DNA of 64,000 nucleotides. Source: Blasia pusilla. Its lineage: Eukaryota. The notes below the pieces were generated by a model, which was not told the DNA's origin, did no database searches, and saw nothing but the letters and a program-made list of their open reading frames with translations. Positions 5,301 to 55,620 of this stretch are shown here, piece by piece (positions within the stretch are counted from its first letter, which is position 1; each line of letters opens with the position of its first letter). Location: the NCBI GenBank assembly GCA_050084515.1, contig CM114271.1:20398001-20462000 (forward strand), in the 5' to 3' direction. The position numbers and the translations under genes are program-made.

Positions 5301-5867
5301 CTCATAGCAAGGACCTTGTGTTTTAAATGGGAGGAGGTTTGTAACCATCCTTTGTTAGTCATAGTTAAGTTAGAGTCTATGACATATAGTGCAGAAGTGG
5401 AAAAGAATCATCCAAAAAATGAAAAGACATGCAAAGAACATGAGATAGTGATGAGAGTGGGGCCATAGGTTGGTGAAAAGTAAGATAAGGATGAAGTTGG
5501 GGATAGATGTGATGAGATGAGATAGGGACATTAGGGTCCAAAGAAGATCCTCTCATGCTATGAGAGTATGACACGTGATATATGGATGGGTAGAGCTAAT
5601 TAATTTATCTTCATTATACATATTCCATAAGTATATAAAGGAAGAGGAGAGACCTCAAAGGAAATTCTACCTTAGAGCAACTCTAGAGTGGTCTTACGAG
5701 ATTTGAGAGTTATACGTGTCGAGGGCTTGAAGCTCGCACACTCATTCAATCCTTGCCCACACCCATTCTTTTGTCTCAAGCCCGCGAGGGCGAACGAGGT
5801 ACCAAAAAGATTAGGCGGGGGCCTATTGATCCCATAGACGGACAAGTCATTTCAATACAACCTTACA
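2340..5867 (+). mobile_element. Degenerate Ty3/gypsy chromovirus (protease, RT, RNase H, integrase, chromodomain, PPT, 3' LTR); 5' LTR not seen
   Basis: Protease RVLIDLCATENF...YNVILGMPW (~2980-3220). [12 protein letters not shown]...IIFLDDILV (~3300-3410). Integrase remnants 4500-5060. Chromodomain FKVEHIL...EYFVQEKGYP...WEP at 5141-5265. Many stops. Start approximate. Confidence 0.85.
5340..5867 (+). repeat. 3' LTR of the chromovirus, preceded by a polypurine tract
   Basis: PPT-like ATGGGAGGAGG immediately upstream; termini TGTAA...TTACA. Confidence 0.7.
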
Positions 5868-7904: not shown

Positions 7905-9300
7905 CTATACACATCTCAGACACATCCATCGTCCCATGGGAACTACATCAAGAGGGGGGGGGATCAGACATGACATATGCCATCCTCGAGAACAACCATC
8001 ACATACCAACATGGTGGTTGCACCCCTTGCAGATCCGCACAATATACACCTCAAGCCTGCAGGTACCATTGCCAAGCTCGGATCCACTATCCCGTCTATG
8101 TTCGGAAGATGACATGGTGCACAATTGCGCACATGATCCTTCCAAACCATACCATCCTGTCCCTCCAACATGAGGACTCCGGTCGGTAATACCTCGCGCA
8201 CACTTAGGATCGTGCCCCCCTGTAGTGACATCTAGCGTCGTGGGTGCCGCGTGTTGTAAATACACGTAATCTCCAGGATGAAACCTCCTAATTCTTGGAT
8301 GATAACCTCCTCCAAACATGGTCGCGTACCTCAATGTATCTTTATGCTGAGCAATAACTAAGTTCTCAAAGGCCATAGGCATAACTCCGACGCTTGAGGG
8401 GGCACAAGTGATACTTTCTTTCCAAGGTTAGTGCTTCTAGAGTAAATTGGCATAGTCTACGAAAAATCTCTGCCCTCTGAGAACACGCTTGTACCCACAC
8501 ATCTGGATCATCAAGATCTAACACCTCCGCCATGTCACGTTGATTAACTGTAGGTAAATATGGCTCTCTCCCAAAGAGCAAAAAGTATGGTGAAAATGAT
8601 GCCAAGGATGTTTGCCAACTAAAGCGATAACCCATAGCCAACCATGGCAATTGTAGGTCCCACTCCCTCAACTTTCCCCGCTGCATGCCATACTTGCGCA
8701 ATCCTCTCTTCACCGTCTGTACTCCTCTCTCCGCCAACCCATCCACCTAAGGATGATCTCTAGACGTGGTGCGATGATCTACCAGCGCTTGATCACACAA
8801 GGCCTGAAACTTGCCCCTAAACTCGGTACCCTTGTCAGTCAAAACCTCGGCCTGTGCACCAAAGTGACTAAGCACACAATCTAGAAATGCATAAGTTTTT
8901 CCCTCACTCGCCTTGTCTGGTAGTGCCACCAACTCTATCCACTTGGAGAAATGCTCCACCATGACCGACAAGTACCTATGATGATGCCACGTCAATGGCA
9001 AAGGTCCCGCAAAGTCTAAACTCCATCGATAACCATAACCGATAATCGGCAAAGGATGTAACTACGGAGTGGGAGCATTGAAGGATGCTCGCACTCTGTC
9101 ACATACCATACATCTGACCACAAACTGCTATACCCCTATATGCATGTTGTGCCACCAATACTGAACCTGGAGTAAGCTGTAAGTACGCTTTACTCCAAAA
9201 TGCCCCAACTCCTCATCGGCATGTCGCACTACACGTGCTCACTAGGAAGGATGAGGTACCACTCATATCCTACCATCTCTCCATACCCGCAAAATGTGAG
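7905..9300 (-). pseudogene. DDE integrase with C-terminal PHD finger (element A), disrupted
   Basis: WSLDFAGPLP...VEHFSKWIELVAL...LTDKGTEF...DGLAER core, then C4HC3 CILCGS..MLVCDGCSRGWHMSCLIPP.L..VP.G.WMCLRC. Confidence 0.9.
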
Positions 9301-9639
9301 TCCCCTCCCACCTGAACCTCCTGGCTCTCTGTAGGATCTAATCCCGCTCCCTAGCACTCACTGTACTCGCTATGACGCCAGTGCGTAAGAACTCCACAAC
9401 CTCCATTTCATCCTGGATATCACGGCCACCTATCGCCTCTTCACTGACCTCTGGATCCAAAGACTCATCATCCAACCCCACCACTCGAGTCATCACCTGC
9501 GATTGACCTACCATAGTCAACCAACAAAGATAGGCAAATACATGCCAACCGGGCACCATCTCCTCATCATTCTCTCCGTGCCATCGAGCTCTTGTGTCGT
9601 CTCTCTGACTCAAACATGGGTTACGACTCAACCCATCCG

Positions 9640-10900
9640 CATCCTAGTTCAGCCGGCGTGGCCTATGAACCATCTCAAACTCATACTCTTGTAGTAATAG
9701 AGCCCACTGGGCAAGCTTTCCGTAAGCTTGCCGGACTCCATCAATCACCTCAACAGTTGATTAATCAGTGATAAGTGTGAAAGGGTTGCCAAATAAATAG
9801 CACCTGAAATGTGCCACAACCCACACTGCAGCTAAGCACTCTCCCTTGTAAGAGTTGTACTTTTCCTCTGCAATGTTGTTTGATCGGCTCGCGTAAGCCA
9901 CAACGAACTCCCTCTCCTCATCATCCCTCTGAGTAAGCACTGCTCCTAGACTCAACATGCTCCAATCCGTATGTAATTGGAATGGGCGACCCCTAACCGG
10001 TCTCTGTAAAATGGGTGAGGACGTCAACTTGTCCTTGAGCTCTTGAAATGCTCGCTCCTGATCATCTCCCCACAACCAAACCTGATCAAGTCTTGTCAAC
10101 AAAGTCAAAGACTTTACGATCGCACTAAAACCTTTGACATATCGTCGATAGAAGTTCGCCAGTCCAAGAAATGCTCGGACTCGACTCACATCTGTAGTAG
10201 CCTCTATCTTTGTCTGCTGAACGCCTAACCCACTCGTGTATATGGTGTGTCCCAAGTACTCAATTTTCTCTTCAAAGAATCTTCACTTGCCTAGATCTAA
10301 CTTCAGTCCATGTAACTGCAATCACCAAAATACCTCCTCCAAGTGTCGCTCGTGCTCCTCAACCCTGGAACTAAAGATAAGAATATCATCTATGTAACAT
10401 CATACAAACTCGAAGCCAGCCAGAATCCTATCCATCACTCTCTGAAACTCCACAAGCGTGTTCTTCAACCCAAATGGTAAGAACCGCCACTAATACAAGC
10501 AATCTCTCCCGAATCGATCTATCCCCTAGAATATTGTCTTCTCCCTGTCCTCCAACTTGATTGGAAGCTGATGATAGCCATCACGGAGTTCTAAAGTATT
10601 GAAGATCTTTGCATGTCCTACTACATCAAAGATCTCCTCAGGAGTAGGCATGGCATACCGATCAGACCTTGTCTGTCGGTTGATCGAACGGTAATATCCA
10701 CACATCCGCCTATCCGTCAAATTGCCATACATATCCTTCTTTTCCGGCATGACTGTGGCAGATGCATACTCCCTATGTGATAACTCCACAAGTTTTGCCT
10801 CCAACAAGTCCTGACTCCTCCTCGAATCAAGGCTCGCTCCATATCAGAATACCTGTAGGGTTGACAAAAGATCGGCGTATCACAAGCCAACTCAATCCGT
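9640..10900 (-). pseudogene. Reverse transcriptase-RNase H (element A), disrupted
   Basis: RMCGYYRSIN...GYHQLPI, YIDD near 10385-10398, VRAFLGLANFYRRYVKGFS, LHTDWS...VVAYASR...ECLAAVW. Confidence 0.9.
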
Positions 10901-11329
10901 ATCCCGGGACCCTTCAGCATACCCAAGTCTCTCATATTGAAGGCAAAAAAAATGACATGCCCTCTTAGAAGCCTATGAACTCGCGGTCGTTCTCCTCCTA
11001 TCAACTTGAGACCTATCACAGGCTCCCAAGGCTCCATTGTGACCTCACTCGGAGAGTACGCAACCTTCGGCTTTGGTTGCTATGTAACAACCCTAGCCAC
11101 CTCCGCAATAGTCACTCCACTCTGACCTCCTACCCCATGCTCCACATCCAAAAAATTTGAACATGTGATGCTCTGGCCGCCTTTGCAGTCTTCGCTCGAA
11201 TGACATCCCAAGAAGTCCATGGATGTCTATCTCTCCTCATCCTGCCACCAGCTAATGCCTGTACAGACCCTGCAGGCAATGGTCCAACTCGTGGACGTGA
11301 CGGCATGGATGACACTTGCATCCATCTCT

Positions 11330-11700
11330 GCTCAGCCATACTTAGGCTCACTATCCATGTGAGGTCCATCCCCTGCCCCAACACCTATCTCCGAGATGCC
11401 TGAGTCATACCTGGCACCGCCATAATACCCGTAGCAAACCCCATGGCGCGCTCGCGCTCATCTGCTGTAGGTTCCTCTAATGCTCGGATCACCTCATCCC
11501 AAATCATGCTTGGCCCTCCTTGACGAAAGGCTGGGAAGCTCACCAACATAGGTAAGGTTGCCTTCAACTCCCCCACCCTATTGGCCATCGCCAACGGTGG
11601 TCTATCATCTCGCGTAACCACCTCAGATCAACGCCCTGAGCCCAAAATAGCATCGAATATGAGATATGGTACTCTCTGGACTCCATCGTATGCTCGACTC
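11330..11700 (-). pseudogene. C-terminal part (TRD, motifs IX-X) of a DNMT3-like cytosine methyltransferase in element A
   Basis: ERERAMGFATGIMAVPGMTQASRR*VLGQGMDL resembles the DNMT3 motif IX/X pattern E.ER.FGFP..YT.V..MS..AR...LG..W. Truncated upstream by the element D insertion. Confidence 0.75.
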
Positions 11701-14700
11701 TCTCACGTCTTTTAGGATAGATCAGTGAGATCTATGAGAGCACCTTTGTGAGTAGTGGAGGACACACTTAGTAGGTCAAGGATGACCTGTTGAGGCCTCG
11801 AGAAACTTGAGAGAGCAGGTTTCCCCTTCGTTTTAGCTCATTTGGAGCCATATTGAGGAACTTACTATTTTAGTGAAGAACCATTTTGAGTATATAATCG
11901 ACTTTATATTTTTGGTAAGTGGCCCTTGACCTCCTACATCAGGTCAAGAGCCAAGGAGGTGACTTGGGAGAATAGGTTACCATGGAGAGAGCTTGGGAGA
12001 AGGGGGGTATACCTCAAGGAGAAAGAGCTTGAGAGCTCATTCTCTCTTTGTTGAACCTCTTGGCATGAGGTGGCGAAGCTATGGTCCCTTGCCTTGTGAG
12101 TGTTACCCAAGCCTCTCATTAGGAGAGTGGGTTTGATTTGACATGAGAAAGAGTGCACACATTTGAGAGCTATGGTGTGAGATGGTGTAGAGAGAGATTG
12201 GATCTTACTTTACAAAGAAAGAATGAGAGAGTGAGAGAGCTTCATGGGAGAGCTTGCTAGTCACTCGCTGGTTTTGCAGGTTGGGTTGGTGTTCCCCATT
12301 CAGCAGCTCATGGGAGTGCTCACCGGAGCAAGGGTTGCTTTGATTGTTCTTTGCATTTGCTGATTTTTCGTGTGGAAGAGTGGCGCGCGGAAGAGCTGCC
12401 CAATTTCTGATAGGGATTGATTATGGGGGCAAGTTGCCCCATTTTGGTCCTCTCAAGAGCAACATTTAGCTTGTTGATTTGTATTTTTATAGGTTTTACA
12501 TTTTGGTTGGGAGAAATCAGCGCGGAAGCGCTGCCAAATTTTGTGTAGGAGAAAGAGACATTGGGCTTTACGACAATCCCTGTCTGTTTCTACTGGAATG
12601 TCCAATTCCAAATATTTTCTGACACTATTGTAGATCATAAAGCTCTGCACGTTGTGCAACAAACGGTATGCAATTTGGAGTTGCGAGTAAAAAGTTATGG
12701 TCAATCTTGAAAATTTGCCATTGCTAGGCAATTTTTAGGGTTAAATTATTCAAACCCTAAACCAGCCGCCACGCCGGCGGCGGCCGTCACCGTCATAGTC
12801 ACCATCACCAATCAACGGTCAATCATCACCGTCAATCGTCAACCGTCATTATCAACGGTCCGTCGTCACCATCAACGGTCAACCCTCACCGTCAACGTAC
12901 CACCGTTGGCCGTTGCCGTTGCCCAGCCTTGCTTAGAGCTGCATTCGGCCATTGTCCACCCTTTGGTTACCTTTGCCGCCATTACGAAGTGGAGGGTCTT
13001 CCACGACCAGCGTTGATTCTCTGACTTGCGCCGCCACCACATACTTTGGTTTGGCCGTCACCGTCATCGCCGTTTCGTCATCAACCATTGATGGTAGATG
13101 AACTCTGGTTATGGTGTTTGAGTTTTGATTTCATGCTGCTATGTTGTGATTGGTAGCCACTCGATGACGATCGAGTACCGTGCCGTGACACACATAGCCG
13201 CAACGCGCCGCTGATTGCCGCGTTGTGCCGCTCGTGGCCGCACTGCACCGTCTCGATCGCGGACCCGCACCGTCATTGTGGACCAGAGTGTGGGTTTATT
13301 GTTGATTGAGGAGGGTATGCCGCCGAGTGCTGTATCCCACCATCGAGGGCCGTGCCGTTCCATGCCGCCTGCAACGCCGCACCGTTCCATTGGAACCGCA
13401 CTGTCCATCAAAGAGTTTTAAGCAGCATCAATACATGAGGAGTATGACTTGCTGATTGGAGGAGTTGTCTCCACAACTAAGTTGGGGTCGACATTTGCAG
13501 TTGCTGAGGAGCAACATCGACATGTGTTTCAGGTTACCTATTCTGGTCCTTTATCTTGCACGTGTGAGGGATTCTGGGATTTGGGTAGTTTATTTGGGGA
13601 TTGGGGTGTGGATGCTGAGAGCATCATTTATGTATGTGGTTTAGGGGACATAGACCTGTGTGGGATGTCCAAAGTTGAGGGTAGGTTGTCGATGAGATGA
13701 TAGCCTCGTCGATTTTCCGCACCACGCCACTTGTTGTCGCACGTTACATTTCTCGGGAGGAAGAGTGTAGATCAATTGCTGCATGTTTGGGATGAGTGAT
13801 TGAGGGATTACTCGCGAGGTTGAGAGTCATCGTGTGAGAGGGGCACGAGGGCCATCACCACGTCCTTTCAGGATTTTGAGAGGCGAGTTAGTGGACGTGA
13901 GAGTAGCTCTAGAGGGTTTACCCGGAGTGGTGGGAGGTTTCAAGGGTCTCCACGTGACACACCGCCTCGATCTCCTTCTCTGTCGTCTTCAGACGAGCGG
14001 GAGCGTGTAGAGGAGTTTGTGAGCACATCGCCACACATTATGAGTGGTCCTACCAGTTGGGTGTACGAGATGGACGATCGGGATAGAGGACCGCGTAGGT
14101 TTTCAGGTGCAGTAGGCACGGTTGAGTTGCACGATTTCATAGCAGAGTTTGGGAGTTGGTCCCCGACTCCTAGCGGGCCAGGAACTCTAGAGAGTTCAAC
14201 CAGTTTACAGCATGGAACGATATGTTCCAGCATTTAGAGGGGGCGCCCATGGACAATTACCATGAGTTCTCTCAGAGATATGCACATGAGATTGAGACGT
14301 GGAGGCTCTACTATGACCCACATTATGTGTCATGGACGGAGCCATTCCCAGATGAGGAGGAGGAGTCAGGAGAGGCTACTTCCTCTTCCACTAGTGACGT
14401 TTTAGGAGGGGTCACTTGCACGGGAGCAGTTGCACCGTCTAGTCGGGTTTGTCCCAGGTTCAACCCTGTGGTTGAGTTCTTTGCTAAGTTGAGGGCGAGC
14501 TACTAGGGGGTACGGACGGAGAAGTTGTGGAGCATCCACGACTTCCAGAGGCGCCCCGGGTGAGAGTTTGCGTGAGGCTTACACTCGCTTGCGCCGGTTG
14601 ATCAACGTCACTCATGGGGTGACAGAGGCTCAGGCTAACCAGTCATGGTATGCGATGCTAGACCGGACCCTACGGACACGGGTGCATGAGGGGGTGCTTC

Positions 14701-17060: not shown

Positions 17061-19416
17061 GGTTTGATATAGAATATTATATTATTTCTAATCTAGTGGA
17101 GAGAATCAATAAGGCATTCATATCTATAGGCCAAGAGTGACCTCATTGGGGAGGTGGCAACTTGAATAAGAAGATTTAATTTTTAAGAGCAATATGAGTT
17201 TATATTAGCTACAACCTAGTTACTATTCTACATGTGCATTTATTTAATTTTTGACTTATTTTCCTTTTTTACATACATATATGAAGATGACTTTTGACCT
17301 ATTGTATGAGGTTAGGGCTACCAAGTTAGTGACATATGTATAAAAATTACCCATGAACGGTTGGATCAACTATGTTTACCCAACATAATATCATAAATAA
17401 AGAAACCAACACCTACTATTTTTCATTACAAGTTTTTTCAAGAGAGTTTTGCAATACTTCTCTAAAGATAAGAAAATGCTATACACTACACTTAAATGTT
17501 GGATTGATGTTGTTGAAAAATAGATAGAAATGGCTTCCTTCAAAGGAGAGCTCCAAAATTTTGGTGCATATCGATGCATAATGAGAGTTTTCCTGAAATT
17601 GAAAGTGATTGGTCTATTTACTCTCTTGAATGGAGACTGAGTCAACTTATCACTTTCTAGATCTCAGAGAAGAAATTGATCGTTCAATCCCTTATTTTCA
17701 ATAGGGAAGTGGGTCGACCAATCATTTTCCATATCTTGAAGAAGAAAAATGTAGGGCTAACTCACTCAATTTTTTCATTGAAAAGAAAACTTCAATCATT
17801 TTCTAATGCTTTTTGACAAAGACATTTTTTCTTAGTTAATAATGAATCTAGATTAAAATCCTACATACTCAAAAATACTTTAGAGCTAAATAGAAAATTT
17901 GATTTATTCAAAGAAATTATATATGTTCCCACTTAAAACTATATGATTTTTTCAAAACTTATTTCAATCCAAAGTTTTGGGGGAAAAGCACCTTTTCCTT
18001 TACTTATATAATGCTTCAACTAATAATTTTTCATGGTTAAAACTTTCCTTCAAATTAAAAGGGAAAGATGAAGTTAATTTTCTCTAGGTTCAACAATAAA
18101 AGTAACTGAATGATCAGTTTCCTTTCATATCTTACTAAGGGGAACTTAAAAGAGGAAGGGCTTTAACTTAAAGAAGGGGTTACTCTAATTTTAAAGGGCA
18201 AAAGCTTAACTTGAAGGAGGAGAATGGAGCTATTTAAATTAAGATCCCTCATTAACCTCTATAATAAACTCTCCACCGTCCTTAAGTTGAAAGGGAAAAA
18301 ATAATTCTCCCATTTGAATTTGATTTCATTTTTACTACTTAAAATTTCAATTTATTTTCATAATGATTTTTTCTAACTCAAATTATTTTGGAGGAGTTAG
18401 AAAAAGATTAGGAATATCTCCTTAAAGAATATGTATCAAAAAAAAATCATCTTCCTAGAAAATTAGAACTATTTAACTTTTATCTTCACTACAATATCGT
18501 GCGCATACACATCGCTACACAACATACATCGTTGTCAACGGACACAGACATAAACACGCACAATCCTATGTTAATTCATGGCATCCAAACAACAAGACAA
18601 GAAGTACCAAAATATCTCCAAAATATATACCCTAAGATTCAATCTCTCTCACAACACCATAGTTCTCACATATGTGCACTCACATGTCTCTCTCAATATC
18701 AAACCAAACCCACTCCCATAATGAAAGGCTTGGATTACACACACAAGGTAAGCAAGACCATATCTCCGCCGCCTCATGCCAAGAGGCTCAAGCTCTCTCT
18801 CCTTGATGTATACACCTTCCCTATCCCAAGCTCTCTCCATGGTAACTTATGCTCCCAAGTCAACTCCTTGGCTCTTGACCTGATGTAGGAGGCCAAGGGC
18901 CACTTACCAAAAATAGAAAGTAGATCATATATGGTACTCAAAATGGTACTTACCTAAAATAGTAAGTTCCTCAATATGGCTCCAAATGAGTCGAAACGAA
19001 GGGGAAACCTGCTCTCTCAAGTTTCTCGGGGCCTCAGCAAGTCATCCTCAACCTATTGAGCCTATCCTCCACTACTCATGAAGGTGCTCTACTAGATCTC
19101 ACCGATCTATGCTAAAAGACATGATAGATGTCGTGCGCATATATATCCCTGTCACCGAACATACAAAAACACGCATAATCCCATGCTAACTCATGGCATC
19201 CAAACAACAAGACAAGAATTACCAAAATATCTCCAATGGCCCCCTAGCTAGTGATTAGGTCTCTCTAACTCCAGATAGCCATCTATCCCTACCTACCATG
19301 ACGTACATCTCTCGGACGCTAAGAGCGAGAAGGCCGGATGGTCATATGACCCCATCGTTAGTCGTTTTCTTGTCATCCATATCACATATATAAGTCGGAA
19401 TATAGAACCACCTACT

Positions 19417-20700
19417 CTATGTACATCTGGGACACATCCATCGTCCCTGAGGAACCCTAGTGAGAGGTGACATCAAACATGCCATATGCCATCCTCTCGA
19501 ACACCCATCACATACTAGCATAGTGGCTGCACCACGGGCCGAACCACACAACATACACCACAAGCTTGCAGGAACTATTGCTAAGCTTGGATCAATTGTA
19601 CCGTCAATGTTCGGAAGATGATATGGCGCACAGTTACGCACATGGTCCTTCCAAACCATACCATCGCGTCCCTCCAATAAGAGAACACCAGATGGCAAAA
19701 CCTCACGCACTCTCAAGATGGTGCGCCCTGCAGTCACATCCAACGTCGTGGGTGCCGTCTGCAAAAAGTAGACATAGTCTTCTTGATGAAACCTCTGAAT
19801 AGTAGGTCAATAACCACCTTCCCAAATAGTCGCATACCTCAACGTATCCCGATGTTGCGCAATTGCCAAGTTCTCAAACGCCATGGGCATCACTCTCCAA
19901 AACAACTCAGCTCTCTGAGAACATGCTCGCATCCATATATCAGGGTCATCAAGGTTCAACACCTCACCAATATCTCGACGAATGGCCGTAGGTAAATCTG
20001 GCTCTTGGCCATAAAGCAACAAGTACGGTGAGAAAGACGCTAAAGATACCTGCCTGCTGAATGTGTATCCCCTTGCCAACCACGGCAACTGGAGGTCCTA
20101 ATCTCCTAGGTGACCTCTCTGCAAGCCATACCTGCATAGTCCTCTCTTCACCGTCTGCACAATCCACTCCGCTAGTCCATCCGCCTCAGGATGATCTTGC
20201 GAAGCAATGCGGTGGTCGATCAGTGCCTGATCACACAAGGCCTGAAACTCCCCGTGGAACTTTGTACCCTGGTCAATCAACACCTCAGCTGGTGCACCAT
20301 AATGACTCTGCACTTGATCTAGGAAGGCATACGCTACTCCCTTACTCACTTTGTCAAGCAATGCAACCAACTCTATCCACTTCGAGAAGTGCTCGACCAT
20401 CACTAACACATAACGACTATGGCAAACCGTCAAAGGCAAAGGTCCTCCAAAATCCAAACTCCATCTATAAACCTAAACCCATGATCAAAAGTGGATGCAA
20501 CTGTGGAGTCGAAGCATTGAACGATGCTTGGACTCGATCACACATCATGCATCTGGCAAGAAACTGTTGAACTTCAATCCGCATGCCTCGCCACCAATAC
20601 TGAATCTGGAGCAAGTTGTACGTCCGCCTCACTCCAAAATGACCCAACTCCTTGTGGGCATGACGCACCAAATGTGCTCTCTACAAAGGATGAGGCACTA
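19417..20700 (-). pseudogene. DDE integrase with C-terminal PHD finger (element B), disrupted
   Basis: HHCC HAHKELGHFG...CMMCDR; core DFGGPLP...LIDQG...DGLAE; PHD CMLCGS..MLVCDGCSRGWHMACLMSPLTRVPQGRWMCPRC then a stop. Confidence 0.9.
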
Positions 20701-21049
20701 CACACACTCTACCATCCTCCCATACTCGCAACACATGTGTGCCCTTCCACCGGAATTGTGAGGCTCACTGTAGGATCCGATCCCGCTCTCTAGCACCCAC
20801 TGTGCTTGCGACACTGCCAGTACGGAGGTACTCCAAGACCAGTCCATCGTCATGAATGTCTTGGCCACTTGTCGTCTCCTAATCGACCTCTGGATCTAAG
20901 GACTCTCCATCAAACCTTACCATCAAAGTCTCACCAATCTGGCTCTCCATAGCCAACAAGCCCAAATAGGCTGACGCATGCCATCCTGGCACCAACTCCT
21001 CATCATTCTCACCATGCCAATGAGCTCCAGTTGCATCTCGCTGACTTGG

Positions 21050-22350
21050 GCATGGGTTATGGCTCAAACCATTTGCATCCTGGTTGAGCATCCCACGTCT
21101 ATGCACCACCTGGAAGTCATACTCTTGCAACAAAAGAGCCCACCTCGCAAGCTTCCCTGTAAGCTTTCTAGACTTCCCTTAAAGTGGCTGATGATCAATA
21201 ATGATGGTAAAGGGATTGTCGAGTAGATAACATCTAAAATGTGCAGCCCACACTGCAACCAAGCACTCACCCTCATACGAGATAAACTTTGCCTCAGCAA
21301 TATTGTTCGAGCGACTAGGGTAAGCCACCACAAACTCTTTACCATCATCGTCATGTTGGGTGAGCACGGCTCCAAGCCCCAACATGCTCCAATCGGCATG
21401 CAATTGGAAAGGACGCCCCCTTATCGGTCTCCTCAATATTGGTGCGGACGTCAATCTATCCTTGAGCATCTGAAATGATCTCTCTTGCTCATCCCCCCAG
21501 TGCCACTCCTGATCCACCTTGGTCATCAAGGTTAGCGGCTTCGCAATTGAACTGAAAACCTTGACGTACCGTCGATAGAAGTTTGCCAATCCCATGAATG
21601 CACAAACTCGACTCACATCTGTAGGGCGTGGAATGCGTGAAATAGCCTCTACCTTTTTTTGTTGCACACCAAGGCCCCCTTGGTATATTTTATGACCCAG
21701 GTACTCAATCTAGTCGTAGAAGAACTTGGACTTGCCTGGATGTAGCTTCAGCCCATGTAACTGCAATCGTCGGAACACCTTCTCTAGATGTCCTTCATAC
21801 TCCTCAACCGTGGCGCTAAAGACTACGATGTCATCAATATAACACCTAGCAAAATCCAGACCTACCAAGATCCTATGCATGACCCTCTGAAACTCAGCCG
21901 GGGTGTTCTTTAACCCGAATGGTAAGAACCGCCACTGGTACAAACAATCCTTCCCGTGAGCATCGATGCCCCAAAATGTCGTCTTCTGCCTGTCCTCCAA
22001 TCTGATAGGTAGCTGATGGTATGCGGCTCGCAAATCCAATGAACTGAAGACCTTTGCATCCCCAATCCCATCAAAGATCTCCTCAAGGATGGGCATGGCA
22101 TACCTATCGAACTTTGTCTGCCGATTGATAGGTCGGTAATCTCCACACATTCGCCTATCTGTCTAGTTGCCATGCACATCCTTCTTGGCAGGCATGACAG
22201 TGGCAGATGCATACTCTCCATACAACATCTCCACTAGTCTTGCTCCAACCAAGTCCTGGCTCCTACTCTTAATCAGAGCCCTCTCCATGTCACTGTACCT
22301 GTAGGGTCGTCAAAGATTGGCGTGTCACTCGACAACTCAATGCGGATCCC
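21050..22350 (-). pseudogene. Reverse transcriptase-RNase H (element B), disrupted
   Basis: MCGDYRPIN...FSSLDLRAAYHQLPI...LPFGLKNTPAEFQRVM...YIDDIVVFS; RNase H LHADWS...VVAY...ECL. Confidence 0.95.
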
Positions 22351-22769
22351 TAGACCCTTCAGCGTATCCAAATCATGCATACTAAATGCAAAACAGCTCC
22401 TATAACTTCTAAGGAATTGGTGTATCCGACGCCGCTCTCCTCTTGTCAACTTAGGGCCCATATCCGGCTCCCAAGTCTCCATCGTGATTACGATAGGACT
22501 CTCCGACGCGGATGTCGGTGGTTGCTATGGTGCAACCCGTCTCGGACAATAGAACTCTCATCTCCACATGTAGTACCCAAAACCATGCTTAATGATGTGG
22601 CTATCATCTCCTAGCATACGTGCAAAACATTCCAAGAAGTCCAAGGATGTCTCTCCCGATCATCCCTGGTGTGTCAATCTCCTCGCGTCTCGCCGCCAAC
22701 CACTGCCTCAACTGTCTCAGTAGGCATGGGGCTCACCAACGTAACTTTTGTGATTTATTGCATTCTCAA

Positions 22770-23380
22770 ACAATGTTGTTCAGCTACTCCTAAGCTGAAA
22801 ATCCATGTCACGCAGTTCAGGTCCACCGCCTGACCCAAGACATGACATCATGATGCCTCCGATAGTGACGGTACTACCGTTACTCTTGTGGGGAATCCCA
22901 TCGCTCGCTCTCGCTCATGGGCGTTGGGCTCCACCAACTTCTGTGCTTGATCATCCCAAACCAAGCCAGGTCCGGCCTCCTTGAATGCATAGGAAGCGGG
23001 AAAACTCACCAATGTGGGAAAGGTTGCTCGTGGCACGCCAATCCTGTTGACCACAGTCAACGGCGATCGATCATCGTGCCTCACTGCCTGTCATTGATGG
23101 CCTGGATCCAATATAGAATACACCAACAAATTTTAGGGACGCTCCACTCTCGCATAAGCCCTCCGTAATATCTCATGTGGTACCAAGTTGATCCACCAAA
23201 GATGCGAGTGGTGTGCTCTAGAACCTACACTTGCCGCATCTAACAACACTGTCGGGCCGATCCATGCGCACACCTGATGTGCACTCATCACTACGCGGGA
23301 CCTCAAATCATCCAAAATTGGCACATTCTCCAAAATGTATGCTCGAGAGCGAGGTTGATGCTCCTGATTGGAGTTCCTCT
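22770..23380 (-). pseudogene. DNMT3-like methyltransferase motifs VI-X in element B (motifs I-V deleted)
   Basis: YILENV (motif VI), PTVLLDAASVGSRAHHSHLWWINL (motif VIII; DNMT3 pattern P..IDA..VS.AHRARYFWGNL), ERERAMGFPTRVTVVPSLSEAS...VLGQAVDL (IX/X). Confidence 0.85.
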
Positions 23381-24549
23381 GACCCGTCACACTCAAGTGC
23401 AAACGTCTTGCTCCACGCGCTTTGTACATGCTGAGTGGCTAAGCGTCGAAGCTCCTCAGTCAAGCCCCAAAGTGCCACCTTTCCTCCACAAATTGATGCG
23501 GCTACCATAGCACTCCTCTGCATAGAAATGTCAGGAACGGAAGTATCTTCTACATGGACATATCCCTCAATCAAATCACTAGGCCAAGTGATTGCACTGC
23601 TAAATGCTGCTAAGGTCGCCATCTCTCTTGGCCATCGCTCGATCACTACACTTGTGAATCGAATGGGTAATGAGCTAAGGTGCCCATCACCTAACTGCCA
23701 TCCTGGTCTGTCGGATGCTGACTCCTCCAAGTAATCCAGGGAAAACCCCATCGGGTATAACACTACTCCATCAACCAAGACGTTGTAGGACTCTACATTA
23801 GTCACTATCGCCTTGGCTCGCACCACGGACTCATCTGTAGGATGTCTCGGGCAAATCCTCACCACAACCTCCTATTGGGTGATATATTGTGTGGTACTCA
23901 CTCCACCCAAGGATGTCTATATCCGGAATGGACAACGCTCCATATCGGCTCTTGTCAAGCCATCATGGGGTTGCGCTTTTGAATCCAACAAGATCCATTG
24001 CGGACTAAAAGCTCTACCTCCGGGACTCACCAACTAGAAGACATCTCCTCGATTATCCAACAACACAGCACTAGGAGAAGCCAGGGCACGCTCTATCGCG
24101 GGTCTAGCGGGCATCTCCGCCATCCTAGCAATTGTAACCTGCTATGAATCTGACGTGGACGGCGCGAGCATCCGCTCCAAGGGCCGGTCCATCACCTCCT
24201 CTGCAATCACCTCTGAATGTGATGCAAGAACTCCAACTCCATGCTTACATAGCGTAGCGGCCAGCCAGAAAGCCTCGGCGGGCATACCTCCCAACGTCAT
24301 AACATCGGAAGCAAAAAATAAAGGAGCGGGGTACACAACGGTGGCCGCCCCCAACAACGTGCTCGACACATGCCCCTCCTAAGCATCAGCAATAGCAGTT
24401 GTTGCACTCGCTTCTCCCATCGCCCTCCGTTCCTGCAAACCAACAACATCACCAACTCTCCAGGAACTCTGATGAGGACCTATCAATGGGGTCCTCATCA
24501 CCTCGGACAACGTGAAAGACTAAGGAATCCTAGTATGTTTCCATCCTCA

Positions 24550-26030: not shown

Positions 26031-28094
26031 ATGTGTACGGTGGATCACTAACACACTCTTCTATATGCTCCCCCTCGTCTCAAGAAGACAAATAAGGAGA
26101 TCGAGGTGGTCTCTCACGTGGAGACCCTCGAAACCTCACACCACTCCGGGTAAACCCTCCAGAGCTACTCTCACGTCCACTACCTCGTCTCTCAAAATCC
26201 CGAAAGGACACTATGATGGCCCTCATGCCCCTCTCACATGATCACTCTCAATCTCACGAGTAATCTCTCAATCACTCAAACTAAACATGCAGCACTCAAT
26301 CTACACTCTCTCACTAAGACATGAGTTGTGCGGCAATAAGCATCGTGGTGCGGCAAATCACTAATATATCATCTCATTGACAAACCATCCTCAACTCTGG
26401 ACATCTCACACATGTCTATGTCCCCTAAACCCATACATTATCGATGCTCCTAGCATCAGCCAAATATCCCAAATAACTTCCCAATATCCGGAAATCCCTC
26501 ACAGTCGTAGAGTAAGAGACCAGAATAGGTAATGTCGATGTCCCTCCTCGGCAATTGCAAATCTCAACCCCAACTCGGTCGTGAAGATAACTCCTCCAAT
26601 CAGCAAGTCGTATTCCTCTCGTACTAACGCTGCTCAAACCTTCTCGATGTGCGGTGCAGGTCCAGCGGTCCGGTGCGGCAGTGGCGGCACAGAACGGCTA
26701 CAAACAACACGGCACTAGGGAATGGGGTGCGGCACTTGGCGGCATACCCTTCTCAATCAACAATTCACACGTTCTGATCCTTAGTGAAGGAGCGGCTCTA
26801 CGATCGAGACGGTGTAGTGCAGCCATGAGCGGCACGGCGCGTTGTGGCTACGGGCGTCACGGCACGGTATTCGATCATCATCAAGCGGCTACCAATCACA
26901 ACATAGCAGCATAAAATGAAAACTCAAACACCATAACCCGAGGTCATCTGCCATCACTGGTTGATGAGGAAACTGCGATGACGGTGGCGGCCAAAACAAA
27001 GTACATGGTGGCAACGCAAGTCAGAGAATCAATGATCGTCGTGGAAGACCCTCCACTTCCTAATGGCGGCAATGGAAATCAAAGGGTGGACAACAAACAA
27101 ACGCAGCTCTGAGCAGCGCTAGGCGGCGGCGGCGGCGGCGGCGGCCGACGGTGGACCATTGACGGTGACGGTTGACCGTTGATGGTGACGACCGCCCATT
27201 GATGGTGACCATTGATGGTGACCATTAATGGTGACCATTGGACCATTGACCATTGATGGTGATAGTTGACCGTTGACGGCGACTATGACGGCGACGGCTG
27301 GTTTAGGGTTTGAACAATTTAACCCTAAAAATTGCCTAGTAATGGTAGTTTTGCAATATTGACTATAACTTTTTTCTCGCAACTCCAAATTCCACACCAT
27401 TTGTTGCACAACGTGCACAGCTTCACAACCTATAACAATATCAAAAACTATTTTGAATTGAACATTCCCATAAAAACTGAACGGGATTGTTGTAAAGCCC
27501 AATGTCTCTTTCTCCAATACAAAATTCGGCAACGCTTCTACGCTGATTTCTCCCAACGAAAATGTAAAACCTATGAAAATACAAATCTACATGGTGCTTC
27601 CAAGAGCACCGGCATGGGGCAACCCACCCCCATAATCAATCCATATCAAAAATTGGGCAGCGCTTCCGCACGGCATTCTTCCACACAAAAAATTGGCAAA
27701 GGAAACATCTCAAGTAAGCGGCTCTTGCTCTAGTTAGCACTCCCATGAACAGTTGCACTGAGAATATGATCCCCAATATACAAAACCAGCAAGTAACTAG
27801 TGAGCTCCCCTATGAAGCTCTCTTACTCACTCATTCTCTCTTTGTAAAATAAGATCCAATCTCTCTCACAACACCATAGTTCTCACATGTGTGCACTCTC
27901 ACATGTCTCTCTCAATGTCAAACCAAACCCACTCCTCTAATGAGAGACTAGGGTTACACACAAAAGGCAAGCAAGACCATGTCCTGTGCATACACATCGC
28001 TGTCACCGAATACACACACAAACACGCACGATCCCATGCTAACTCATGGCATCCAAACAACGAGACAAGAAGTAAGTTTCTCTCTTTGTAAAGT

Positions 28095-28470
28095 AAGATC
28101 CTCAACATCTCCCAAAACAATCTGGACCGAGTATCAGCCAACCCACTACCTCGTCTAGCACTCGATTGGCCCTGACATGGCCAACCGGAAATGACCAAAT
28201 CAATGGTCCCTACCCGCTCTAAGTCCTGCGCCCCCAACAATGAAATATCCCTCGGTAGGAAACTTTGGTACCCTTGTACCGCGGACGCAGATAATAAGTC
28301 GGGAAAACGTGGGCGTAAGTGCCACATGTCGTAGTGAGACGCGCCTCGCAACCTCATCACTCTCCACATACAGGTACTGCTGTACTCGCACTCTTGCCTG
28401 CAAAACAACAGCTAACCCGGTGCTAATCTCTCCAAAGAGATCTAACACTCGAATACCCTCCTCCGGGATA
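28095..28470 (-). pseudogene. DNMT3-like methyltransferase motifs I-V in element C (one frameshift, then deletion)
   Basis: IRVLDLFGEISTGLAVVLQARVRVQQYLYVESD (motifs I-II) and RDI...IDLVISGWPCQGQS...GLADTRSRLFWEMLRIL (motifs III-V; catalytic PC retained). Confidence 0.9.
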
Positions 28471-28899
28471 CACCACACAATGGGTGTGGTATCCAAGGGT
28501 GTCATCGTAGCACTCCTTGCTTCCTCGGGTTCCTCAGACCCATCCTGCTCCGGTGCAAACGCCTCGCTCCACGCGATCTACACGTGCTCATCTGCCAATC
28601 GTCGAAGCTTCTCAATCTAACCCCACAGCGGCACCTCTCCTCCACAGAATGATGCAGCTACCATAACACTCCTCTCCATAGAAATGTCAGGAATGGGAGT
28701 ATCCTCTGCATGGACATGTCCCTCAATCAAATCACTACGCCAAGTGATGGCACTGCTTAATGCTACTAAGGTCGCCATCTCTCCTAGCCGTTGCTCGATC
28801 ACTACACATGTGAATCGAACAGGTAATGAGCTGAGGCGCCCATCACCTAACTGCCATCCTGGTGTGTAGGACGCTGACTCCTCCCGGTAATCCAGGGAA

Positions 28900-29200
28900 A
28901 ACCCCATCGGGTATAACACTGCTCCACCAACCAAGACGTCGTAGGACTCTACATCAGTCACTATCGCCTTGGCGCGCACCACGGACTCATATGTAGGATG
29001 TCCCGGGCGAATCCTCACCACGACTCCTGTCGGGTGATATAGTGTGTGGTACTCACTCCATCCAAGGATGTCTGTATCCGAAATGGACAACGCTCCACAT
29101 CGGCTCTCGTCAAGCCCAATCCTTTGAATGACGCTTTCCCCAACATCAAGGGTTGCACTCCAGAATCCAACAAGACGCGCTGTGGACTAAAAGCTCTACC
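28900..29200 (-). pseudogene. Retropepsin-type aspartic protease (element C)
   Basis: RVLLDSGVQPLMLG active-site motif and downstream YDVLVGGAVL, separated by a frameshift. Confidence 0.75.
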
Positions 29201-32200
29201 TCCAGGACTCACCAACTGGAAGACCTCTCCTCGGTTATCCAGCAACACAACACCAAGAGAAGCCATGGCACGCTCTATCATGGGTCTAGCGGGCATCTCC
29301 GCCATCCTAGCAGCCGCAGCCTGCCATGAATCTGACGTGGACGGTCCGAGCATCCGCTCCAAGGGCAAGTCCATCACCTCCTCTGCAATCACCTCTAAAC
29401 GTGATGCAAGAACTCCAACTCCACGCTTACATAGCAAAGCGGCCAGCCGAAAAGCCTCGGCGGGCGTACGTCCCAACGTCATAACATCGGAAGCAGAAAA
29501 TAAAGGACTGCGGTACACAACGGTGGCCGCCCCCAACAACATGCTCGACACATGCCTCTCCTGAGCATCAACAATAGGAGTCGTCGCACTCATTTCTCCC
29601 ATCGCCCTCCGTGCTTGCACACCAACAACATCACCAACTCTCAAGGAACTTTGATGAGGACCCATCGATGGGGTCCTCATCGCTTCGAACAACGTGAAAG
29701 ACTGAGGAAGCCTAGTCTGTTCTTTGGCTTCCCCTTGCTATGGATCCAACTCTGCGGCTGCTCTACACGTCACAACTGCGGCGGCCTCCATCTGGGCAAC
29801 CCCGCACATCCAACCAGGATCTTCCAGATCTCTGGCTGCTCCATATGATGTCGATGCCACGGATCCGACATCAAACGGAGCAATCTCTCTTTGTAAAGTA
29901 AGATCCAATCTCTCTACACCATCTCACACCATAGCTCTCAAAAGTGAGCACTCTCTCTCATGTCAAACCAAACCCACTCTCCTAATGAGAGGCTTGGGTT
30001 ACACTCACAAGGCAAGGGACCATAGCTCCGCCGCATCATGCCAAGAGGTTCAACAAAGAGAGAATGAGCTCTCAAGCTCTCTCTCCTTGGGATATATATA
30101 CCCCTCCCCTCTCCCAAGCTCTCTCCATGGTAACCTATTCTCCCAAGTCACCTCCTTGGCTCTTGACCTGATGTAGGAGGTCAAGGGCCACTTACCAAAA
30201 ATAGAAAGTCGATCATATACTCAAAATGGTACTTATCTAAAATAGTAAGTTTCTCAATATGGCTCCAAATGAGCCAAAACAAAGGGGAAATCTGCTCTCG
30301 GGGCCTCTGCAGGTCATCCTCGATCTCCTAGGCATGTCCTCCACTACTCTTGAAGACGCTCTACTAGATCTCACCGATCTATCCTAAAGGACGTGACAAC
30401 CATAGCTCCGCCGCCTCATACCAAGAGATTCAGCAAAGAGAGAATTAGCTCTCAAGCTCTCTCTCGTTGAGGCATATCCCTCCCCTCTCCCAAGCTCTCT
30501 CCATGGTAACCTATTCTCTCAAGTCACCTCCTTGGCTCTTGACATGATGTAGGAGGTCAAGGGCCACTTACCAAAAATAGAAAGTTGATCATATACTCAA
30601 AATGGTGCTTTACTAGATCTCACCGATCTATCATAAAAGACTATTGTTGATATGGTGAAAAATAGCTTACACGTGAGCGTATAGCCTAGATCATAGTTAT
30701 GAGACTTGTTATTTTTTACATACCCAACTTTGCTAACTACATCAAACGTGGTTATAATATACTTCTAGAAAAAATCACCTTCACTGAAATTTAACAGATT
30801 TCATAAATTGATTTAAACACCATTTTAGTTTTTTTGTATCATACCCTTTCTTCCCCTATTTTAGAAAACTTTTGGAATTTCAAGATTCGTCCTTTTGTGC
30901 TTTGCAAAACATCTTGCATATTTGTGAAAGTTGAATCTTGATTGGTTGAAGATAAAATATAATAAGCCCTTTTTTTTTAATGAACTCCCTTCATGGTTTT
31001 TTAATGGCTAAATCTTTGATGGACCAAAATAACTAATTTAAAATTTTGATTGAAAGTTTGTCGAGGTCTTCTTCAACATAAAATTGAAGCTACAAAATTA
31101 CATTTTTGCTGTACAAAGGTTTGTATTTTTTGGGAGTTTTGATTTCTTGCTTCAGAAAGAATTTATTTTTGGAGTTGAGATCATTTTCGACAAGACAAGA
31201 CTCATAAGTATTTCCCAATAGAAGATCATCGAGGAAATTTTTCGTAATCTCCAAAAATCATGAAATTTTATGCTTGTCTATGAAAGAACATAAGTGAAAA
31301 AAAATTTAACCCAGAATTCAAGAATTTCAAAATATCAAAAGACATTTTTTCTAAGGAAAAGAAAGAAAAAAATTGAAACTTGAAAGTGATTTCCCAATCA
31401 ACTTTCTAATTGAGAATTCAATGATCTAAACCCTGTAAGAATTTAGGATGAAACCAAGGTTGAGGAATCCCAACAGGGAAAGAAAATGCAATTGTCAAAA
31501 CAGCAAGCGTCTTGATCACAGTAGATCAAAATGTCAACCAACCCAAATTTAACCAACCATTGTCAGATTAAACTAGTTATGGTTATGTAACTAGAGGCCA
31601 TAATTTTGGAAAACTATTCCTACATGTCTAGGATTTCAATTTCCATTCTACAATTTTTATTGACTTCAAAATTTTAGCAATTTTCAAATTTAAAAAATAT
31701 ATAAAAAATTGCATAACTTTCAAATTAGGGGATTGCGAAACCAAGAGGAACTTGGATTCACACAGAGGAAGTTGGTTAATATTTTATTTCAATTAAATTT
31801 TTTGTTAATTTAGAGAAAGGATATTCAACCACAAAGTGAATTTCAGTGATCGTTTCATATATATGCTAAAAGAATGATCATTGAGACTCTTAAAATACTT
31901 GATAGGCAATCGAAAAAAATACTCTCGCTCAAATTTCACTCACATTTGAGAGTTTATTGGCTGATCAATTTACCTCTTAACTTGTTGAAAATTGATTATT
32001 TATATGACTCTAATCCATTAAGAGATATTTGGTAAATTTATTTCCTTTCCAAATTGTGATTTGAGATCGTAAATATGAGATCATATCCATATTTATAAAG
32101 TAAAATTCTTACTTGTTGATTTCCTTATTGATTATTAGAAATCAATAAGTATGAATTTTACTTTCTTAATTTTGAAGGGTCCAATTCTACTAACTAATGA

Positions 32201-54600: not shown

Positions 54601-54656
54601 CTAAAACCAATTCATGGCTCAAGTAATTCTCTAATTTTGGATGTAGGTACAGTATG

Positions 54657-55620
54657 TGTCGTGCTTCTACTCTCCTTGAACGTAAATCTTTAGTGTTGCG
54701 GAAGCGTGCGTTCGGGAAGACACGCTCTCAATGTTGATCTTCATCCAAACACGCACTAATGTTAGTCAGGTCTGGGTCAATCAACACCCTAACTCTCTGA
54801 GTTTTCGACTCGACCTCTCATCAAGCTCAACCTTCCTAGTTTCTCACTTTACAACATGGGCAAGTCTCTCAAGATTTGGGAGAGACTTTCTAGTCGGTTC
54901 AAGAACCTCAAACGGCGTTTGTACGCCTGGCGGTCCCAAATGTCCAATAAACCTCCAATGAGTCCCTAACCAAGACTCGCTAAAATGAGTCGCGGGTTGG
55001 AATCCAAGTGTGGCTTTCGGAATCCATTCCCTTGGTTCAAATTTGGGTTTTGAGTCCGAACGCCAAACTCTCATTCCATCCCCTGCCCCTTGAGCCGCCC
55101 TTTGGCGCCAAAAATGGGGTTTAGGTCCCAAAAATCCTCGGAGACACTCCCCCTTACTAGTACATCTGGGGATCACCACCCTCCCCCTAAATTTGGAGAA
55201 AGACACTTGAGCCCTTCATTTTGGCTCTCAACCAAACTCTTCCGTTCAGTATTTTTGGCAAATATCTCAGCCTCTACTTGTGCCCTAAACGCATTTGCTA
55301 ATATCTTTGGTGCGTTGGAATCGGTTTCGCATAAGCTTTCCAACATCACCTTACTTGTACAAAATGAATCTCCGGATTTAATGTTATGGTCCAAAACATA
55401 GTCAAAACCCCAAAGGCTAGTCGCATTCCAAATGTGGTTCTCACCTCTTTGGTAAACAACCTTCCTAGACTCAAATCATCTCAAGTCTTGGTTCACATTT
55501 GGTCCACATTTCCCGGTCGCGACCTTGAATGCATGAAACTCTATTTACGAATTTCATCTCTTGGACTCTTCCAAGAGACGCGTCAAAAGGGAAATCATCC
55601 TAGCGTGAGCCCGTTAAAGT
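54657..55620 (-). mobile_element. Older diverged LTR of the chromovirus LTR family, interrupted by element F
   Basis: Begins TGTCGTGCTTCTACTCTCCTTGAACG and is colinear with 58762-59715; breaks off at 55620. Confidence 0.8.

What the first reader, a model, noticed from the sequence alone, without database searches (positions are those of the whole stretch)
19417..19764. PHD finger fused to the integrase C-terminus in place of a chromodomain
Seen: a complete C4HC3 finger ends the integrase frame in both subfamilies (7905-8231 and 19417-19764), with all eight ligands retained. The chromoviruses in the same window have a chromodomain at this position. Established: the CD.C.R..H..CL.PPL..VP.G.W.C pattern is typical of histone H3-tail-binding PHDs (CHD4/KDM5-PHD1/BAZ-type), several of which prefer unmethylated H3K4, and integrase C-terminal modules steer target choice. 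Inference: a chromatin-reading targeting module.
Basis: partly seen in the sequence, partly recalled or inferred. Interest (0 to 1): 0.7.

Follow-up and report, generated by a model that had tools for sequence, protein, structure and literature searches.

The report
PHD-tipped integrase of methyltransferase-carrying retrotransposon
A very abundant plant-type jumping gene ends its integrase with a real PHD finger that probably helps it dock on chromatin; such fingers are already known from algal elements, but this family also carries its own DNA methyltransferase and appears to insert by cutting inside its terminal repeat.

Summary
The finger is real: Pfam PHD with eight ligands at 19423-19557 and 7911-8048 (- strand). 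Both window copies are decayed, but integrase core and finger share one stop-free frame in 11 of 12 long copies from this genome. The element is not a chromovirus. It belongs to a green-lineage Ty3/Gypsy clade; 98 of 120 listed homologs also carry a DNMT3-like domain. A PHD in Gypsy Gag-Pol (Chlamydomonas Gypsy-7a) and DNMT3-Gypsy with split repeats (Klebsormidium) are published. Histone reading is only weakly supported: there is no K4me3 cage, this subclade has lost the acidic loop of algal and KDM5-type fingers (net charge +5), and the H3-tail model scores 0.44 against a 0.01 control. The scan found this element type before on other DNA. Verdict: new variant of a known kind.

The parts
19423..19557 (-). 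PHD finger (C4HC3), last domain of the integrase frame; stop at 19417-19419
   Evidence: (PF00628 42.5 bits)
19560..20725 (-). Integrase: H2C2 part (shifted frame, about 20468-20725), rve core, C-terminal beta-rich part; two in-frame stops before the finger
21056..22309 (-). Reverse transcriptase and RNase H (broken)
22519..22527 (-). Family-conserved in-frame TAG-CAA-CCA between methyltransferase and RT (read-through-type context)
22776..23366 (-). C-terminal two-thirds of a DNMT3-like cytosine methyltransferase domain; motifs I and IV are missing in this copy
23569..24033 (-). Aspartic protease region (broken)
   Evidence: Asp_protease hit in homologs P0012 and P0172
24742..26235 (-). gag with two zinc-knuckle-like motifs (broken)
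27830..27971 (-). Remnant of the 5' repeat A, followed by the primer-site position
19238..19252 (-). G-run at the polypurine-tract position, directly before repeat B
18497..19237 (-). 3' end: B (19237-19129), 2-bp spacer, A (19126-18633), B (18621-18497)
28088..30398 (-). Partial upstream copy: repeat A (29894-30398), protease, and methyltransferase N-terminal part with motifs I and IV (28088-28511)
   Evidence: (PF00145 34.1 bits)
7911..8048 (-). PHD finger of the second, more divergent copy (frameshifted against its integrase core)
8510..11786 (-). Second copy: integrase 8510-9286, RT-RH 9620-10899, TAG-CAA-CCA 11074-11082, methyltransferase C-terminal part 11340-11786
60482..60986 (-). Comparator: chromovirus integrase end (SH3_Tf2-1 plus frameshifted chromodomain)
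5141..5296 (+). Comparator: second chromodomain after an RT-RH-INT remnant

Best explanation
The finger is the normal, ancestral C-terminal domain of the integrase in a green-lineage Ty3/Gypsy clade that also carries a DNMT3-like methyltransferase. Shown: domain order gag-PR-DNMT / TAG-CAR-YY / RT-RH-INT-PHD; ends A-ORFs-B-NN-A-B with TGTC...GACA termini and 4-bp target duplications. Inferred cycle: the RNA starts inside A and primes itself; RT and INT-PHD are made by occasional read-through, so methyltransferase is in excess over INT-PHD; reverse transcription gives B-NN-A at both ends; integrase cuts the CA-NN-TG palindrome inside the left repeat and inserts those ends, while the true cDNA ends are end-joined. 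The PHD most likely tethers the integration complex to nucleosomes through the unmethylated H3 N-terminus, biasing insertion away from H3K4me3 promoters, with weaker or altered specificity in this basic subclade.
For: Fold and sequence: best matches are H3-tail readers (ATXR5, DPF3, BAZ2B, BHC80, KDM5-PHD1; model pLDDT 76.8). All eight ligands, the Trp and the Gly-Trp-His turn are invariant in 21 of 21 aligned fingers, which were picked for a complete pattern; the Asp after Cys3 is in 20 of 21. pN/pS is 0.32 for the finger, 0.18 for the core, 0.24 for RT. The position matches the targeting chromodomain of chromoviruses. Finger plus the host's H3 residues 1-34: ipSAE 0.44 against best control 0.01, contacts agree 82%, partner pLDDT at least 54. 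The tool calls this weak support (mark reached by 51 of 78 solved and 2 of 108 mismatched pairs; at 0.60 or under, 5 of 78 solved and all 4 passing mismatches), and like complexes are solved, so it may be memory. The active C. reinhardtii Gypsy-7a has a PHD and inserts between genes 2.6 times more often than chance. Ends: 13 exact and 5 one-mismatch 4-bp duplications in 19 copies with both ends, 0 of 19 with 5 bp. Stop context in 29 of 32 distinct own copies and 31 of 36 relative loci.
Against: Net charge of the finger is about +5 in 29 own copies and +3 in 36 relative loci, against a mean of -4.4 in 106 distant homologs, 98 of them negative. The acidic loop of KDM5-type fingers is absent; binding a basic H3 tail is therefore less expected. 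Target sites show no sequence rule (20 different 4-mers in 23 flanks), which fits chromatin targeting but also no targeting. The Gypsy-7a bias may be selection after insertion (the authors say so). No binding, insertion-map or read-through data exist. The homolog search used the INT-PHD end as query, so PHD enrichment among hits is by design. Many metagenome loci are near-duplicates and not independent.
Confidence: 0.55

Rival explanations
1. In this subclade the finger has changed ligand: being basic, it binds DNA, RNA or an acidic protein surface (for example the nucleosome acidic patch) instead of the H3 tail.
For: Net charge +4 to +6 in own copies and 0 to +4 in the ten nearest homologs, with loss of the acidic loop, while 98 of 106 distant homologs are acidic. 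The shift goes with loss of the long C-terminal tail.
Against: The Asp after Cys3 and the Pro-x-Gly-x-Trp region, which I recall as the H3 R2 and N-terminus contacts, are kept. The H3 model passed weakly.
Confidence: 0.2
2. The finger mainly serves the methyltransferase, as the ADD finger does in animal DNMT3 (recalled): it licenses methylation of the new copy or its surroundings on H3K4-unmethylated chromatin.
For: 98 of 120 INT-PHD homologs carry the methyltransferase-like domain, 91 of them directly in front of the integrase. The best solved matches are DNMT3A/B/C. The catalytic PCQ is kept in 27 of 30 and ENV in 29 of 30 top-scoring own copies.
Against: In this family the methyltransferase lies before RT and is separated from the finger by a conserved stop and about 1,000 residues. 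The finger stays intact where the methyltransferase has lost its motifs (P0035, P0018, P0020).
Confidence: 0.12
3. The finger is a structural part of this unusual integrase (complex assembly, or recognition of the internal CA-NN-TG site) and reads no histone.
For: Finger and split ends occur together in this genome and in relatives L080, L100, L111, L128 and L130. The integrase C-terminal part has no recognised SH3/GPY-F module.
Against: The closest folds are all chromatin readers. PHDs recur in unrelated elements without such ends (passages). Ends of the chlorophyte members were not examined.
Confidence: 0.13

Closest known systems
KnitGypsy-Dnmt3 of Klebsormidium nitens (de Mendoza et al. 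2018, PMC5890265; section 9 and passages read, supplements searched, figure not seen)
   Same: Gypsy element with a DNMT3-like domain and DIRS-like repeat layout.
   Different: The text and the 3 searched supplement files have no 'PHD' (Fig. 4c unseen). There the DNMT is in the Pol ORF; here a conserved stop separates it from RT. No target duplication, internal att site or priming mode is given in what I read. Here about 12,000 first-look candidates. Its sequence was not in hand, so kinship is untested.
Gypsy-7a_cRei of Chlamydomonas reinhardtii (Craig et al., PMC9940879; section 13 read)
   Same: Gypsy Gag-Pol with a PHD finger, proposed to limit harmful insertions. A C. reinhardtii gene model (CHLRE_09g398141) with the order INT-PHD is a homolog of this integrase end (47% identity).
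   Different: Near-conventional paired LTRs per the legend; no methyltransferase described. Chlorophyte homologs have acidic fingers, the DNMT between RH and INT, and mostly a long tail. I did not test whether that gene model is Gypsy-7a.
Chromoviruses (Tcn1, Chlamyvir; REXdb, PMC6317226; passages read)
   Same: Chromatin-reader domain at the integrase C-terminus; self-priming is predicted in one clade there and inferred here.
   Different: Different reader, separate RT-RH branch, 4-bp duplication (Chlamyvir 5 bp), split ends, DNMT. The REXdb main text has no 'PHD'; its sequence files were not among the supplements held.
REM1 of C. reinhardtii (Perez-Alegre et al. 2005; not held, seen only through citing passages)
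   Same: Gypsy-related element cited as carrying a PHD.
   Different: Its integrase part is described as truncated and in reverse frame with a chromodomain.
EpiLTR / DAM-LTR elements (bioRxiv 10.64898/2026.05.21.726589; first fifth and passages read, supplements not seen)
   Same: LTR elements combining a chromatin reader with methyltransferases.
   Different: Their reader is a chromodomain and their DNMT is DNMT4-like; the paper sets them apart from streptophyte Gypsy-DNMT3. The PHD finger is not mentioned.
DIRS/Ngaro split-direct-repeat elements; IS3/IS30-type junction transposition (both recalled)
   Same: A-ORFs-B-A-B layout; cutting of abutted ends separated by a short spacer.
   Different: This element has a DDE integrase, TG...CA ends and 4-bp duplications; no tyrosine recombinase was hit.

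Membership tests
PHD finger (PF00628) | C4HC3 ligands, score over cut-off, PHD fold | tested here: met
H3K4me3-reading PHDs (ING/BPTF type) | Aromatic-cage Trp two residues before the His ligand (position recalled) | tested here: not met
   Gly in both window copies and in 108 of 114 homologs matched, Trp in none
Unmodified-H3 readers (KDM5-PHD1, BHC80, CHD4, ATXR5 type) | Best sequence and fold matches; Asp after Cys3 | tested here: met
Unmodified-H3 readers (KDM5-PHD1, BHC80, CHD4, ATXR5 type) | Acidic surface beside the peptide groove | tested here: not met
   Net charge about +5, neutral or basic loop
Unmodified-H3 readers (KDM5-PHD1, BHC80, CHD4, ATXR5 type) | Binding to the H3 N-terminal tail | tested here: inconclusive
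   Model score 0.44 against best control 0.01, weak support
Ty3/Gypsy | Order PR-RT-RH-INT with H2C2 and rve integrase | tested here: met
Ty3/Gypsy | TG...CA termini and short target duplication | tested here: met
   4 bp: 13 exact and 5 with one mismatch, of 19
Ty3/Gypsy | Two equal LTRs flanking the ORFs | tested here: not met
   A-ORFs-B-A-B in 17 of 24, A-ORFs-B in 3, 5' end missing in 4
Chromovirus | Chromodomain after integrase | tested here: not met
   PHD instead; no chromodomain hit among the 120 homologs
Chromovirus | Nesting in the chromovirus RT-RH clade | tested here: not met
   Separate branches on a midpoint-rooted FastTree of 235 domains; only 3 labelled chromodomain tips, no curated references
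KnitGypsy-Dnmt3 / streptophyte Gypsy-DNMT3 | DNMT3-like domain with catalytic motifs | tested here: met
KnitGypsy-Dnmt3 / streptophyte Gypsy-DNMT3 | DIRS-like split repeats | tested here: met
KnitGypsy-Dnmt3 / streptophyte Gypsy-DNMT3 | DNMT in the same ORF as RT | tested here: not met
   Same frame but a conserved stop between them; contiguous in homologs P0010, P0012, P0172
KnitGypsy-Dnmt3 / streptophyte Gypsy-DNMT3 | Common descent with the K. nitens element | not tested
   No K. nitens sequence among the named hits
KnitGypsy-Dnmt3 / streptophyte Gypsy-DNMT3 | Methyltransferase activity | not testable with these tools
   Motifs and pN/pS 0.31 only
DIRS/Ngaro | Tyrosine recombinase instead of DDE integrase | tested here: not met
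   rve integrase; no recombinase among Pfam hits of the long frames scanned

The most novel reading that the evidence does not exclude
This is an old, unnamed Gypsy lineage of green plants and algae defined by a reader-writer pair (PHD plus DNMT3-like enzyme). Its integrase does not use the cDNA ends: it cuts a palindromic CA-NN-TG site inside the left repeat, as bacterial junction-type IS elements do, and leaves the real cDNA ends to end-joining. A leaky stop makes the methyltransferase in Gag-like amounts, so each new copy could arrive chromatin-docked and self-methylated.
Probability: 0.45. Interest if true: 0.72.

Novelty: new variant of a known kind. Interest (0 to 1): 0.45.

Why it matters
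The flagged feature alone, a PHD on a Gypsy polyprotein, is published and is a modest result. The family as a whole matters more. It is one of the large repeats of this 390-Mb genome (about 12,000 first-look candidates each for the DNMT piece and the INT-PHD end, against 1,636 for chromodomains; candidates are not copy numbers). It has young copies, and sense-strand RNA of the family is present. If the internal-cut model holds, it is an LTR retrotransposon integrating from an abutted-end junction, a route long discussed and set aside for retroviruses (recalled); such elements would also be mis-annotated by paired-LTR finders. The acidic algal versus basic subclade fingers give a natural pair for testing how a targeting reader changes. 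Thousands of DNMT3-like copies bear on counts of host methyltransferases and on the host methylome.

Tried and rejected
Artefact or chance: rejected (Pfam cut-off passed, 150 of 150 scored genome hits at 83-100% identity). Chromovirus with a swapped domain: not supported. K4me3 reader: rejected on sequence. DIRS identity: rejected. Symmetric use of a two-LTR circle: predicts as many A-B-A-ORFs-B copies, and none was seen (0 of 24 long copies; 198 matches of the common form against 9 of the alternative pattern, all 9 with the G-run before B); the asymmetry is unexplained. REXdb motif look-up found nothing, but only 5 small supplement files were held. Fold of the integrase C-terminal part: model too poor (pLDDT 46); BLAST to the chromovirus SH3 part gave nothing. 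Own-genome dN/dS values (0.16-0.79) are biased by top-hit choice and are not used. The INT probe was cut out of frame, so its identities and frame labels are not used; positions were rechecked. Host lineage: an Atlas search and a homolog search with a host exon gave nothing useful, so the host is not placed. The RT search of representatives returned mostly multi-RT gene models, used only as outgroup. No RNA holder was listed by words for the window copy; reads gave no start pile-up at the predicted position. One search was badly framed and returned nothing relevant. The REM1 paper is not held.

Full report
Observation. A six-frame scan finds two C4HC3 fingers in the window, at 19423-19557 and 7911-8048 on the - strand. 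Both pass the Pfam PHD cut-off (42.5 and 38.6 bits against 24). Both window copies are decayed. At 19.4 kb the finger shares the frame of the rve core but two stops intervene; at 7.9 kb frameshifts intervene.

The family. The INT-end-plus-PHD peptide gives 11,881 first-look candidates in the 390-Mb own genome, of which 150 were scored, all at 83-100% identity. Of 12 copies fetched because of long open frames, 11 have catalytic core and finger in one stop-free frame, the longest 786 aa from RNase H to the finger. The order is gag, protease, cytosine methyltransferase, RT, RNase H, integrase, PHD. The methyltransferase hits PF00145 and matches DNMT3A/B/C best among solved structures; its piece has 12,321 candidates. 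In the 30 best-scoring copies PCQ is kept in 27 and ENV in 29 (biased by choice of top hits). The window's 19.4-kb copy lacks motifs I and IV; a partial copy at 28.1-28.5 kb has them. The 5' and 3' A repeats are 86-99.8% alike in 17 copies, so some insertions are young. Three RNA runs with the same species label lay 5,281-5,563 reads (of 10-12 million read) over all 30 bins of a long copy, mostly on the strand expected for sense RNA in a usual stranded library. Only 23-33 reads are 99% alike or more, so this is RNA from many diverged copies.

Relatives. The integrase end has 142 homologs among long proteins, 120 listed (the query contained the finger, so its presence is by design). Named ones come from Chlamydomonas reinhardtii, Haematococcus, Pleodorina, Tetrabaena, Cymbomonas, Hariotina and Coleochaete. 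With profiles built here, 98 of 120 also carry the DNMT-like domain, 91 directly before integrase and 7 before RT; several of the rest begin at RT, as expected below a stop. Eighty metagenome loci (51-86% identity; many near-duplicates) repeat the architecture. On an RT-RH tree of 235 domains all 87 PHD-bearing tips lie on one side of the midpoint root, 85 of them in a clade of support 0.978; the 3 chromodomain-labelled tips sit in a separate clade (0.996). The own family groups with a Coleochaete protein in a 16-tip clade (1.0). Curated references were not available, so this shows separation from the chromoviruses sampled and no more. The host lineage was not determined. An Atlas cluster of INT-PHD proteins, commonest in Mollusca among the 24 members with a phylum, is a lead that the fusion exists elsewhere too.

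Is the finger a histone reader? Sequence and fold place it with KDM5-PHD1, CHD4, DPF, BAZ2, BHC80 and ATXR5 fingers. Against 60 relative loci pN/pS is 0.32, near the methyltransferase (0.31) and RT (0.24) (synonymous sites near saturation). The K4me3 cage position, as I recall it, is Gly in 108 of 114 homologs and never Trp. The Asp after Cys3 is kept. However, the loop that is acidic in KDM5A/B and Lid and in 95 of 106 distant homologs is neutral or basic here: net charge about +5 in 29 own copies, +3 in 36 relative loci, +2.4 in the ten nearest proteins, and -4.4 in the distant ones. A model with the host's H3(1-34) scores 0.44 against a best control of 0.01, with 82% contact agreement and partner pLDDT of at least 54. 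The tool rates this weak, and similar complexes are solved. I put H3-tail tethering at 0.55.

Read-through. Between methyltransferase and RT an in-frame TAG-CAA-CCA is present in 36 of 40 rows, which are 29 of 32 distinct copies, both window copies included. TAR-CAR-YY occurs at the matching place in 31 of 36 relative loci, with different letters in otherwise open elements (TAG-CAA-TCA in L076, TAG-CAG-TTA in L129, whose two frames are 1,369 and 1,047 aa). This matches the tobamovirus-type leaky-stop context UAG-CAR-YYA (recalled). Read-through is inferred. It would make Gag-PR-DNMT the major product and RT-RH-INT-PHD the minor one, which argues against the finger working as a fused DNMT3 ADD-like domain in this family.

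Ends. Of 24 long copies, 17 read A(514)-ORFs-B(128)-NN-A-B, 3 read A-ORFs-B, and 4 lack the 5' end. Termini are TGTC and GACA; 13 of 19 complete copies have an exact 4-bp duplication, 5 have one mismatch, none has 5 bp. A G-run lies directly before the first B in 29 of 30. Directly after the 5' A, 12-15 nt are complementary to a site inside A, in most copies 162 nt before its end, in 15 of 17 copies (best of 85 controls: score 8); relatives L080 and L111 show the same with other letters, L128 weakly, L100 and L130 not. So reverse transcription should define the repeat as B-NN-A, and the integrated ends fall inside it, at the palindrome GACA-NN-TGTC (spacer AC 14, GC 6, GT 6, AT 3, TG 1 of 30). 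The A|B joint is ragged: one base more or less, deletions, leftover G-run or primer-site sequence, as expected of joined cDNA ends. Relatives L080, L100, L111 and L128 have the same layout and 4-bp duplications. The simplest reading is that integrase cuts the internal junction of the left repeat. A symmetric circle would also give the mirror form, and none was found: 198 exact matches for the common form against 9 for the alternative pattern, all 9 with the G-run before B. Earlier completion of the left repeat during reverse transcription could explain the bias; this is inference. Circle versus joining after insertion is open.

Comparison with print. A PHD in Gypsy Gag-Pol, with the targeting idea, is described for Gypsy-7a_cRei (PMC9940879, section 13 read). 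PHDs are called common in Chlamydomonas elements and widespread in retrotransposons (passages of PMC8557442 and PMC6673714). A DNMT3-Gypsy with DIRS-like repeats is described from Klebsormidium (PMC5890265, section 9, passages and supplement search), without 'PHD' in the text; its figure was not seen. The REXdb paper has no 'PHD' in the main text. The 2026 EpiLTR preprint (first fifth and passages; supplements not seen) concerns chromodomain elements. I also read passages of PMC12344493 and PMC2774666. Ten full-text searches (listings only) showed no paper on the PHD-DNMT3 pairing, the leaky stop or the internal cut; subscription journals, theses and Repbase were not covered. The scan's own notes report this element type, and the split ends, from other genomes; I read them after reaching my reading (notes).

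Verdict. A real and conserved feature; not a chromovirus; known in kind; histone targeting likely but weakened for this basic subclade. The element's end structure and its reader-writer pairing are the more interesting parts. New variant of a known kind, interest 0.45.

Noticed in passing
P0020, P0021, P0027, P0034, P0049, P0075, P0084, P0091 (homologs): Chlorophyte-type members continue 100-450 aa past the finger, with weak Tudor (PF21743) and N6-adenine methyltransferase (PF02086) hits below cut-off: possibly RT-RH-DNMT3-INT-PHD-Tudor-DAM elements with two methyltransferases.
   Followed up: partly
table: Most distant homologs read EC instead of PC at the catalytic Cys; C. reinhardtii P0035, Pleodorina P0018 and P0020 keep the domain without its motifs.
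   Followed up: partly
window:47176-51666 (-): Multi-exon host gene with a SAM domain (PF00536, 49431-49880), a UBZ-like Cys motif and a 'DANHCPG' motif that I recall as metallo-beta-lactamase: probably SNM1/DCLRE1A-like. The short exon gave no Pfam hit.
   Followed up: partly
window:57152-58157, 58759-59764, 62263-63260: Three copies of a 1-kb repeat (93-97% alike, one inverted) with TGTCGCG...CGCGACA-like ends, plus a 70%-alike copy at 54656-55621; gag-like hits at 56561-57037. Probably repeats of another, related element.
   Followed up: no
window:11703-15149 (+): A third family member (repeat A and gag only) lies head-to-head against the truncated 7.9-kb copy.
   Followed up: partly
window:38733-39711: Degenerate RT-RH piece related to the family, next to a partial A repeat.
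   Followed up: no
L201, L202 (G000:C25, about 9.6 kb apart); L194, L197: B-NN-A followed by the primer site instead of B: tandem or concatemer-like insertions.
   Followed up: partly
ESM Atlas, rank 1: An 80-member cluster with PHD (99%) and rve (94%), commonest in Mollusca, score 0.93: a possible separate integrase-PHD fusion in animals.
   Followed up: no
P0151: A close homolog is labelled as from an uncultured cyanobacterium; likely eukaryotic DNA in a bin.
   Followed up: no
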